From Candidatus Omnitrophota bacterium (GTDB taxonomy: Bacteria; Omnitrophota; Gorgyraeia; JABMRG01; JAFGKX01), in contig JAZDPX010000045.1 in the NCBI GenBank assembly GCA_043797125.1, forward strand, positions 72,338-136,337: a stretch of 64,000 nt of DNA, read 5' to 3'. The notes below the pieces were generated by a model. The model worked only from the letters and a program-made list of their open reading frames with translations, was not told the DNA's origin and ran no database searches. A program made the position numbers and the translations under genes. Positions 29,354 to 29,448 of the stretch are shown piece after piece. Position 1 is the stretch's first letter. Each line of letters starts with the position of its first letter.

Positions 29354-29448
29354 TTATACGTCCAGCCTCTTTATCCGCCTTCGTGTATTGGGATAGGTTC
29401 GTAGTAGATAGCCTTCGGCGGATTGCTGTTATACGTCCAGCCTCTTTA
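29354..29448. mobile_element. MITE-like insertion: 55-nt element with 7-bp terminal inverted repeats (ATCCGCC...GGCGGAT), flanked by a 20-bp direct repeat (TTATACGTCCAGCCTCTTTA) that duplicates the gyrB 3' end
   Basis: Direct repeat copy 1 is at 29354-29373 and copy 2 at 29429-29448. Copy 2 encodes the gyrB C-terminus (VKRLDV*). The inserted core at 29374-29428 is near-identical to 43442-43492. Confidence 0.6.

What the first reader, a model, noticed from the sequence alone, without database searches (positions are those of the whole stretch)
29354..29448. MITE-like 52-55-nt element inserted at the gyrB stop with a 20-bp target duplication; second copy at 43442
The element ATCCGCCTTCGTGTATTGGG[A/C]TAGGTTCGTAGTAGATAGCCTTCGGCGGAT has 7-bp terminal inverted repeats. 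It occurs twice, at 29374 and at 43442. At the gyrB/gyrA junction it is flanked by the 20-bp direct repeat TTATACGTCCAGCCTCTTTA, of which one copy encodes the last six codons and stop of gyrB. The gyrB 3' end was therefore duplicated on insertion. A 20-bp duplication is unusually long for a transposase-generated target-site duplication, which hints at a different mobilisation mechanism. The second copy is followed by ~130 nt rich in matching inverted repeats (ttcgtagtagata / tatctactacgaa), possibly a longer parent element.
Basis: seen in the sequence. Interest (0 to 1): 0.55.

Follow-up and report, generated by a model that had tools for sequence, protein, structure and literature searches.

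The report
Mobile hairpin repeat between gyrB and gyrA
A 51-base hairpin-forming repeat, from a small family found only in some Omnitrophota bacteria, has recently copied itself into the gap between the gyrase genes and duplicated 20 bases of the gyrB end, which keeps the gene intact and points to an unusual, still unidentified way of moving.

Summary
A 51-nt unit lies at 29373-29423. It is flanked by an exact 20-nt direct repeat at 29354-29373 and 29429-29448. The second repeat copy is the last five codons plus stop of gyrB. A 98% identical copy lies at 43441-43491.

- **More copies exist.** That second copy heads a cluster of three units (two diverged and inverted), not a longer parent element. 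Seven further units occur in six Omnitrophota contigs from public collections.
- **The repeat is derived.** Five related lineages have one copy of the gyrB end and no unit, so the duplication arose with the insertion.
- **Other duplications.** L006 shows a second 20-nt flanking duplication. L005 shows two of about 44 nt that rebuild a tRNA-Met 5' end. Three loci show none.
- **Polarity.** In all four events a repeat copy abuts the unit's CCGCCTTCG end exactly, and filler lies at the other end.

Best reading: a non-autonomous hairpin repeat (REP/MITE-like) copied by a polar process, with one enzyme-defined end and sloppy rejoining. When the target is an essential gene, selection keeps only the duplications that rebuild it. 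The enzyme is unknown. I rate this a new variant of a known kind, of moderate interest.

The parts
29373..29423 (+). Hairpin unit, type B, 51 nt, lying between gyrB and gyrA. It has a 7-bp terminal stem ATCCGCC/GGCGGAT and the conserved core TTCGTAGTAGATAGC. On the gyrBA mRNA strand it reads as the reverse complement.
29354..29373 (.). Direct repeat copy 1: a non-coding duplicate of the gyrB 3' end. It abuts the unit's 5' (CCGCCTTCG) end directly, and its last A is shared with the unit's stem.
29424..29428 (.). Filler TGCTG between the unit's 3' end and the gyrB-side repeat. Only its first T matches the sequence that follows unit U1.
29429..29448 (-). Direct repeat copy 2: the last 20 nt of gyrB, (G)TA AAG AGG CTG GAC GTA TAA, coding ...V K R L D V and the stop.
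29429..31915 (-). gyrB, 828 aa, intact. It is 100% identical to an NCBI Candidatus Omnitrophota MAG protein (P0001).
26905..29334 (-). gyrA, 809 aa. Its native 19-nt leader AAGACAGGATGCATAGAAA follows repeat copy 1.
43441..43491 (+). Unit U1, 98% identical to the gyrB-gyrA unit. It directly follows a 21-nt copy of the tRNA-Val 3' end.
43496..43544 (-). Unit U2, a diverged copy in inverted orientation. With U1 it forms a head-to-head pair.
43547..43595 (-). Unit U3, a diverged copy in inverted orientation. Its terminal stem GCCCGCC/GGCGGGC carries two compensatory changes.

Best explanation
The 51-nt sequence is a recently inserted copy of a small, non-autonomous, hairpin-forming interspersed repeat. 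In kind it resembles REP/BIME or MITE elements. The family is confined to a subset of Omnitrophota.

**Shown**
- The unit plus a 5-nt filler was inserted into the last 20 nt of gyrB.
- Those 20 nt now occur on both sides of the insert. One copy still finishes gyrB with its stop codon. The other sits in front of the native gyrA leader.

**Inferred mechanism**
- Copying is polar. One end of the unit, (A)|TCCGCCTTCG, is joined precisely to a free end in the target. This is most likely done by a structure- or sequence-specific enzyme acting on a single-stranded hairpin form. A HUH/RAYT-like nickase is the leading candidate and a reverse-transcriptase route is an alternative. No such gene lies in the window.
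- The other end is closed imprecisely by host repair. This leaves a few filler bases, or transduced flank, and rejoins the target at a variable distance.
- Rejoining upstream of the entry point gives a duplication.
- When the target is the end of an essential gene (gyrB 3' end, tRNA-Met 5' end), only duplications that rebuild the gene survive. That is why long repeats are seen there and none in neutral spacers.

**Likely consequence, not tested**
An intercistronic hairpin now separates gyrB and gyrA translation, lengthening the spacer from about 19 nt to 94 nt.

**How the confidence divides**
About 0.85 that this is a mobile-repeat insertion with a target duplication. About 0.35-0.4 for the specific polar, single-strand mechanism. 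The figure given (0.55) is for the statement as a whole.
For: **The repeat and unit are real.** Exact 20-nt repeat and 51-nt unit, none expected by chance.

**The repeat is derived.** Relatives L009, L010/L011, L012, L019 and L020 have a single gyrB end ...KRLDV*. gyrA follows after 2-28 nt, or after 113 nt of an unrelated palindrome in L012. None has the unit or a second copy. The window's 19-nt leader is homologous to the L020 spacer, so the reconstructed empty site is sensible.

**It is a family.**
- Four units in the window.
- Seven more in L001, L002, L003 (two units), L005, L006 and L007.
- The outer stem keeps pairing through two compensatory changes.
- Units form clusters in alternating orientation.

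**Other duplications.**
- L006: the 20-nt repeat CAGTTTTATTGAGTCCTATT flanks 147 nt plus two units.
- L005: two copies of about 44 nt (32 nt upstream plus the first 12 nt of tRNA-Met) each end directly on a unit's 5' end.

**Polarity in all four events.** A repeat copy abuts the CCGCCTTCG end. Filler of 5, 8 or 11 nt, or a unit plus 147 nt, lies at the other end.

**A case without duplication.** The L002 unit sits in the loop of a GTAG-tagged palindrome with no duplication.

**Precedents.** Replitron-1 has a precise left end, a fuzzy right end and variable duplications (PMC10288648). Long variable target duplications are known in bacteria (PMC2853133).
Against: - No exact empty site is available. 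The closest relatives share only 75-81% GyrB identity.
- There are only four duplication events, from three genomes. The two L005 events could instead be tandem duplications of unit plus spacer by unequal recombination between units.
- No candidate mobilising enzyme is visible. The only nuclease genes near any units are a GIY-YIG and a LAGLIDADG gene beside the window's cluster, plus recombinases in L006 and L007.
- The window's own cluster does not fit the rule simply. There the 21-nt tRNA-Val repeat flanks the GIY-YIG cassette, not the units.
- Copy number looks low: 1 hit in 185,579 species genomes and 5 real hits in the metagenome set with the strict core pattern.
- The filler GCTG is not derived from the sequence after U1, so U1 may not be the direct parent.
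Confidence: 0.55

Rival explanations
1. It is a classical MITE moved in trans by a DDE transposase that makes a fixed cut staggered by about 20 bp, as IS1630 does with 19-26 bp. The 20-nt repeat would then be an ordinary, if long, target-site duplication.
For: - The unit has 7-bp terminal inverted repeats.
- Two independent events have 20-nt repeats: gyrB and L006.
- IS1630 is a precedent, cited in PMC2853133.
Against: - Filler lies between the unit and one repeat copy in every event (5-11 nt, or 147 nt plus a unit). A transposase that cuts both ends precisely should leave none.
- Repeats of about 44 nt occur in L005, and none in L001, L002 or L003.
- The inverted repeats are only 7 bp long.
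- No transposase gene lies in the window or next to units elsewhere.
Confidence: 0.15
2. It is a one-off templated insertion made during replication or double-strand-break repair by microhomology-mediated template switching. The break may have been made by the neighbouring homing endonucleases. On this reading 52 nt were copied from the unit cluster 14 kb away, on the other side of dnaA, and synthesis resumed 20 nt upstream. No dedicated mobilising enzyme is needed.
For: - Duplication length is variable and filler bases are present.
- The only mobile-type genes in the window, GIY-YIG and LAGLIDADG, sit beside the donor-like cluster.
- GIY-YIG cassettes in this clade also land in gene 3' ends with repeats of 10 nt (thrS, L015) and 21 nt (tRNA-Val).
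- Both loci lie within about 10 kb of dnaA.
Against: - The unit's 5' boundary is the same in all 11 copies, and the copied tract matches the hairpin unit apart from one extra T at its 3' end. Random switching should give ragged boundaries on both sides.
- No useful microhomology is visible at either junction.
- The same polar pattern recurs in other genomes.
Confidence: 0.15
3. It arose by site-specific recombination. The 20-nt repeat would be an attachment-site core shared by a small circular element and gyrB, as when integrases target tRNA 3' ends.
For: - tRNA 3'-end fragments lie next to units.
- A tyrosine integrase is present in L007 and a serine-recombinase fragment in L006.
- The repeats are about 20 nt, a length typical of attachment-site cores.
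Against: - The repeats at gyrB, L006 and L005 are unrelated sequences. The element would therefore need a different pre-existing core for each target.
- A 75-nt circle is implausibly small for double-stranded recombination.
- No integrase gene lies in the window.
Confidence: 0.03
4. It is not mobile at all. Either it is an assembly artefact, or it is a conserved regulatory hairpin whose flanking repeat is functional.
For: The sequence comes from a metagenome-assembled genome. Hairpins between cistrons can regulate operons, as REP elements do (PMC3733652).
Against: - The repeat and the unit are absent from all five related gyrB-gyrA junctions.
- Both are shorter than the assembler word sizes typically used, and they sit inside a 142.8-kb contig.
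- Folding of the spacer as mRNA is unremarkable (z = 0.13).
- No terminator-like site is found.
Confidence: 0.03

Closest known systems
REP / BIME / REPIN elements (repetitive extragenic palindromes, mobilised by RAYT HUH transposases)
   Same: - Short hairpin-forming interspersed repeats in intergenic DNA.
- They often lie within 20 bp of ORF or RNA-gene ends.
- They occur singly, as inverted pairs and as clusters.
- Some sit inside other palindromes (PMC3733652).
   Different: - There is no terminal GTAG or CGTC tag.
- The stem is only 7 bp and the loop is 35-37 nt. The loop sequence (TTCATAGTAGATAGC) is better conserved than any inner pairing.
- Copy number appears low.
- Some copies are flanked by 20-44-nt target duplications, which were not seen around the window's own GTAG-type REPs and, to my knowledge, are not a described REP feature.
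- No RAYT gene could be looked for outside the window.
Bacterial MITEs (for example Correia/NEMIS, ERIC, RUP)
   Same: Small, non-coding, with terminal inverted repeats. At some sites a duplication of target sequence flanks the unit. Insertion between cistrons is tolerated.
   Different: - At 51 nt it is at or below the usual size range.
- The inverted repeats are only 7 bp.
- The duplication is long and not of fixed length.
- One end carries filler.
- No parent insertion sequence is known.
[quoted passage not shown]
   Same: Target duplications of tens of base pairs, variable in length. In some of the H. influenzae cases they overlap the 3' end of a gene.
   Different: Those inserts are kilobase-sized and carry protein genes. 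Here the insert is a 51-nt hairpin. The mechanism of the restriction-modification cases is itself unknown.
Replitron-1 insertion signature (eukaryotic HUH Rep transposon, PMC10288648)
   Same: Orientation-specific insertion with one precise end. The other end is fuzzy and carries extra bases or transduced flank of variable length. Target duplications vary in length.
   Different: - Replitrons are eukaryotic, kilobase-sized and autonomous.
- In Replitron-1 the fuzzy end is copied from the parental flank. For the gyrB copy this could not be shown, because its filler does not match the flank of U1.
- No Rep gene is known here.
Mitochondrial mobile GC clusters, and homing-endonuclease genes that land in gene 3' ends with duplication of the gene end (from my own knowledge, not checked here)
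   Same: Small GC-rich hairpins that spread within a genome. They neighbour GIY-YIG and LAGLIDADG genes. Duplication of the gene's end keeps the host gene intact.
   Different: These occur in organelles of fungi. Their duplications are short or arise by homologous co-conversion. No homology to the present units is known.

Membership tests
REP (GTAG/CGTC-tagged palindromes) | A 20-40-nt palindrome with a stem of 5-13 bp and a loop of 2-20 nt | tested here: not met
   The stem is 7 bp but the loop is 35-37 nt and the unit is 49-51 nt. The family ranges are taken from PMC3733652.
REP (GTAG/CGTC-tagged palindromes) | A GTAG or CGTC tetranucleotide at one terminus | tested here: not met
   The unit termini are ATCCGCC/GGCGGAT or GCCCGCC/GGCGGGC. 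GTAG occurs only inside the loop of the window copies. True GTAG-tagged REPs exist elsewhere in the window.
REP (GTAG/CGTC-tagged palindromes) | Extragenic, close to gene ends, forming inverted dimers and clusters | tested here: met
   All 11 units are intergenic. They lie directly after tRNA 3' ends (window U1, L003, L007) and form clusters in alternating orientation (window, L001, L003, L005, L006).
REP (GTAG/CGTC-tagged palindromes) | A cognate RAYT (Y1 HUH transposase) gene flanked by the repeats | not testable with these tools
   No such gene is in the window or next to units in the loci held. The rest of the source genome could not be fetched.
MITE | Terminal inverted repeats | tested here: met
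   A 7-bp perfect inverted repeat is kept through compensatory changes. It is short for a transposase binding site.
MITE | A target-site duplication of a fixed, family-specific length directly abutting both ends | tested here: not met
   The lengths are about 0, 20, 20, 44 and 44 nt. Filler lies on the 3' side in every case.
MITE | An autonomous insertion sequence with the same termini | not testable with these tools
   None is present in the 225 kb of Omnitrophota sequence held.
Any Rfam RNA family | A score at or near a family's gathering threshold | tested here: not met
   No match to the units at the gathering threshold or at E <= 5 over 43000-44500, which includes U1-U3.
Integron attC site | Terminal core sites RYYYAAC ... 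GTTRRRY, and arrays all in one orientation next to an integrase gene | tested here: not met
   The termini are ATCCGCC/GGCGGAT, read directly from the sequence. Units occur in both orientations. No integrase gene lies in the window.

The most novel reading that the evidence does not exclude
These hairpin units are the non-autonomous members of a so far undescribed bacterial copy-and-paste system with a polar insertion signature. One end is joined precisely by an enzyme. The other end is fuzzy, with filler or transduced flank. Target duplications range from 0 to more than 40 nt. This would be a bacterial counterpart of the Replitron-1 (HUH) or SINE/target-primed reverse-transcription pattern. 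It may be driven by an unrecognised nickase, with the small GIY-YIG proteins that neighbour units in two loci as one candidate. It would be able to enter the ends of essential genes because the duplication rebuilds them.
Probability: 0.2. Interest if true: 0.8.

Novelty: new variant of a known kind. Interest (0 to 1): 0.5.

Why it matters
Small palindromic repeats are common in bacteria, but how most of them move is unknown. Long, variable target duplications are rare and unexplained.

Here a very recent copy (51 of 52 bases identical to its sister) sits inside the essential gyrB-gyrA operon, beside the replication origin genes. It shows a clean signature: one exact junction, one filler junction and a rebuilt gene end. 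The same signature recurs in other genomes of an uncultured phylum.

If the polarity holds genome-wide, it defines a testable mechanism and a search image for the enzyme. It would also explain how mobile DNA can land in the ends of essential genes and tRNAs without killing the host.

If it does not hold, this is one more lineage-specific REP/MITE-like family.

Tried and rejected
- **Rfam** found nothing for the units, either at the gathering threshold over the window or at E <= 5 over the cluster. It found no tmRNA or other family in L001-L007. My guess that the conserved 190-nt region in L003/L006 is a tmRNA was not supported.
- **Fetching the source genome** by exact GyrB sequence failed: not on record. 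No genome-wide census was possible.
- **Strict core pattern scans:**
  - Species-genome collection: 1 real locus.
  - Metagenomes: 5 real loci and 2 chance hits in coding DNA, L004 and L008.
  - Viral contigs: 0 hits.
- **A looser hairpin pattern** in viral contigs gave more than 120 hits. All were chance matches in GC-rich DNA and none fitted the unit profile.
- **The GIY-YIG homologue search** gave only 9 proteins and was no use for finding more unit loci.
- **A profile search** of all 225 kb held found no further or more diverged units.
- **An inner stem** (GGCTA/TAGCC) is only weakly supported, with 74% of cells paired. I do not claim a two-stem fold.
- **Terminator or promoter function:** no convincing site at the gyrB-gyrA unit. 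The mRNA fold of the spacer is no better than shuffled sequence.
- **L002 as an inverted target duplication:** rejected. The 16-nt flanks are a GTAG...CTAC-tagged palindrome in the queE-queD spacer, and the unit sits in its loop.
- **Homology between the LAGLIDADG start and the region downstream of units in L003/L006:** rejected by alignment.
- **Shared termini** between the units and the GIY-YIG cassettes: none seen.

Full report
**1. The observation**

The window comes from a Candidatus Omnitrophota metagenome-assembled genome. Its GyrB is 100% identical to an NCBI MAG protein on a 142,845-nt contig.

- gyrB is 29429-31915 and gyrA is 26905-29334, both on the minus strand.
- The 51-nt sequence ATCCGCC...GGCGGAT occurs at 29373-29423 and at 43441-43491, with one A/C difference. 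No match is expected by chance. Identity runs to 52 nt.
- The 20-nt repeat TTATACGTCCAGCCTCTTTA is exact at 29354-29373 and 29429-29448. It extends to 23 nt with one mismatch.

Read on the gene strand, the junction is:

...GAG GTA AAG AGG CTG GAC GTA TAA | CAGCA | reverse-complement unit | (T)AAAGAGGCTGGACGTATAA | AAGACAGGATGCATAGAAA | ATG (gyrA).

The repeat therefore covers five full codons (K R L D V) plus the stop and two bases of the preceding Val codon.

**2.

The sequence after the second copy is not a longer parent. It is two further, diverged units in inverted orientation: U2 at 43496-43544 and U3 at 43547-43595.

A core pattern shared by all four window units (TTCRTAGYAGATARCNNNCGGCGG) found these loci elsewhere:
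- One locus among 185,579 species genomes: L001, an Omnitrophota MAG.
- Seven metagenome loci, of which five are real (L002, L003, L005, L006, L007) and two are chance hits in coding DNA.
- None in viral contigs.

Eleven type-B units align at 79% mean column identity.
- The 7-bp outer stem has five invariant pairs. The other two pairs switch from A-T/T-A to G-C/C-G together in two units.
- An inner stem is only weakly supported.
- The primary sequence (CCGCCTTCGTGT, TTCATAGTAGATAGC, CGGCGG) is better conserved than any internal pairing. This suggests recognition by a protein rather than a purely structural RNA.
- No Rfam family matches.
- A second unit type (CCGCCTTCGCATTCAACGG...CTTCGGCGG) shares the termini and co-occurs in clusters.

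Units lie in intergenic DNA and often directly after the CCA of a tRNA or tRNA fragment (window U1, L003, L007). They occur singly, as inverted pairs or in clusters.

**3. The repeat is derived, not a conserved feature**

I fetched the gyrB-gyrA junction from five related lineages with 75-81% GyrB identity: L009, L010/L011, L012, L019 and L020.

- All end gyrB with ...EVK(R/Q)LD(V/I)*.
- All have one copy of the homologous 20 nt.
- gyrA starts after 6, 2, 113, 2 and 28 nt. The 113-nt spacer of L012 is an unrelated AT-rich palindrome.
- None has the unit or a second copy of the gyrB end.
- The window's 19 nt before gyrA resemble the L020 spacer. Deleting 75 nt (unit, filler and one repeat) therefore restores a plausible ancestral junction.

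The caveat is that no near-identical strain with an exact empty site was available.

**4. What the other copies say about mechanism**

- **L006.** An exact 20-nt repeat (CAGTTTTATTGAGTCCTATT) flanks 147 nt plus two units.
- **L005.** Two units are each preceded by a copy of about 44 nt, made of 32 nt of upstream sequence plus the first 12 nt of tRNA-Met. The third, intact copy continues into the complete tRNA-Met. Spacer 2 matches the tRNA-side sequence (the 3' end of spacer 3) at 40 of 44 positions.
- **L002.** The unit sits in the loop of a perfect GTAG...CTAC-tagged palindrome between queE and queD, with no duplication.
- **L001 and L003.** No flanking repeat is seen.

In all four duplication events the geometry is the same. 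One repeat copy abuts the CCGCCTTCG end of a unit exactly. Extra sequence lies between the unit's other end and the second repeat copy: 5 nt at gyrB, 8 and 11 nt in L005, and a second unit plus 147 nt in L006 when viewed from its terminal unit.

Fixed-length staggered cutting by a transposase that defines both ends does not predict this geometry. A polar process does: one end is set by an enzyme, or by the end of a single-stranded intermediate, and the other end is closed by host repair at a variable position.

The closest published signature I found is Replitron-1, with a precise left end, a fuzzy right end and variable duplications (PMC10288648). Long variable target duplications in bacteria are on record for IS1630 and for restriction-modification genes (PMC2853133).

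Selection can explain why long duplications are seen where the target is an essential gene end (gyrB 3' end, tRNA-Met 5' end). Rejoining downstream of the entry point would delete part of the gene and be lost. This step is inference.

**5. The enzyme is unknown**

Pfam scans of unannotated ORFs in the window found no transposase, integrase, reverse transcriptase or HUH protein. The only mobile-type genes are a 95-aa GIY-YIG protein (43106-43393) and a LAGLIDADG protein (43656-44381), both beside the unit cluster.

Genes next to units elsewhere are housekeeping genes, apart from three:
- a GIY-YIG gene in L007;
- a tyrosine integrase in L007;
- a serine-recombinase fragment in L006.

**6. The cluster locus is itself a patch of inserted DNA**

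In relatives L013, L014 and L015, tRNA-Val is followed within 1-12 nt by tRNA-Leu(UAA). In the window, about 1.3 kb lies between them (43025-44344):
- a GIY-YIG cassette flanked by an exact 21-nt repeat of the tRNA-Val 3' end (43004-43024 and 43421-43441);
- the three units;
- a 33-nt 5' fragment of a tRNA-Leu of the L013 type (43620-43652);
- the LAGLIDADG gene;
- a complete tRNA-Leu of the L014/L015 type.

In L015-L018 another GIY-YIG gene sits 15 nt before the native thrS stop. It is flanked by a 10-nt repeat and gives ThrS a new C-terminus.

So duplications of gene ends around inserted DNA are a recurring theme in this clade and are not limited to the hairpin units. This leaves room for the rival view that nuclease-induced breaks and sloppy repair underlie all of them.

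**7. Comparison with known families**

In kind, the units are closest to REP/BIME elements and to MITEs.
- They fail the REP definition on the terminal GTAG/CGTC tag and on loop length.
- They fail the MITE definition on a fixed duplication abutting both ends.
- A cognate RAYT gene or parent insertion sequence could not be looked for.
- The window also carries ordinary GTAG-tagged REPs without flanking repeats, so the duplication is specific to this family.

I classify the element as a new variant of a known kind: a lineage-restricted hairpin repeat with an unusual polar insertion signature.

**8. Verdict**

- The 'longer parent element' idea is not supported, and the MITE label is not established.
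- I hold with high confidence (about 0.85) that this is a mobile-repeat insertion with a target duplication.
- The specific polar, single-strand mechanism is inferred from four events and holds at about 0.35-0.4.
- Interest is moderate (0.5).

Noticed in passing
window 43004-43441: The last 21 nt of tRNA-Val (CGAGCCCTGTACCGCCCACCA, 43004-43024) recur exactly at 43421-43441. They flank a 396-nt cassette that holds a 95-aa GIY-YIG gene (43106-43393). Relatives have tRNA-Val directly followed by tRNA-Leu.
   Followed up: partly
window 43620-44433: A 33-nt 5' fragment of a tRNA-Leu(UAA) of the type seen in L013 ends in the anticodon loop. It is followed at once by a LAGLIDADG gene (ATG at 43656) and then by a complete tRNA-Leu(UAA) of the type seen in L014/L015. 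This looks like a homing-endonuclease cassette that brought or favoured a replacement tRNA allele.
   Followed up: partly
L015 11700-12170 (the same in L016-L018): A 119-aa GIY-YIG gene is inserted 15 nt before the native thrS stop. It is flanked by the 10-nt repeat TAAAGGAGGT. ThrS gains a new C-terminus (576 vs 570 aa) and the native tail is displaced about 400 nt downstream.
   Followed up: partly
window 55777-55802, 60622-60647, 63334-63359, 63796-63821: Four copies of a canonical GTAG...CTAC-tagged REP-type palindrome (GTAGCG[C/G]AGGCTTAAGCCT[G/C]CGCTAC). Three carry a shared 5' extension, TTATCCACAACC. No flanking duplications were seen.
   Followed up: partly
window 43067-43088, 46836-46857, 53928-53949, 53975-53996; also L015 about 9577-9597: A perfect palindrome CCTGCCTGCCGGCAGGCAGG recurs in intergenic DNA. 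One copy sits in the loop of the leader hairpin in front of the GIY-YIG gene. Two lie just upstream of the 6S RNA gene.
   Followed up: no
window 43050-43100 and 42820-42870; L013 9960-9990; L014 9770-9800; L007: A repeated leader or promoter-like motif, ...GCAAA(T/C)TGTCCCGAGGAAC...AAGCGACGAGGGAC, lies in front of thrS, tRNA-Val or GIY-YIG genes in different genomes.
   Followed up: no
window 1-25506, minus strand: An open reading frame of at least 8,502 codons without a stop runs off the start of the window. It is probably one of the giant genes known from Omnitrophota. It contains internal repeats (for example 6051-7039).
   Followed up: no
L006 (reverse strand) about 1550-1745 and L003 (reverse strand) about 480-680: A conserved region of about 190 nt (about 90% identity between the two contigs) is closed by a 13-14-bp helix (GAAGGTAGGATTCG / CGAATCCTACCTCC) and ends ...CCTCCGCCA. 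Rfam and ARAGORN find nothing. A 23-nt copy of its 3' end precedes a unit in L006.
   Followed up: partly
window 26862-26899 and 46912-46949; L012 3591-3703: AT-rich palindromic repeats (AAAATTCAAAATGTAAAATTCAAAATT and relatives) lie in intergenic DNA. In L012 a 113-nt element of similar style fills the gyrB-gyrA spacer.
   Followed up: no
window 54149-54336: A 6S RNA gene (Rfam RF00013, 85 bits) lies between an epimerase gene and a gene that is probably rarA, judging from the matching gene in related contigs.
   Followed up: no
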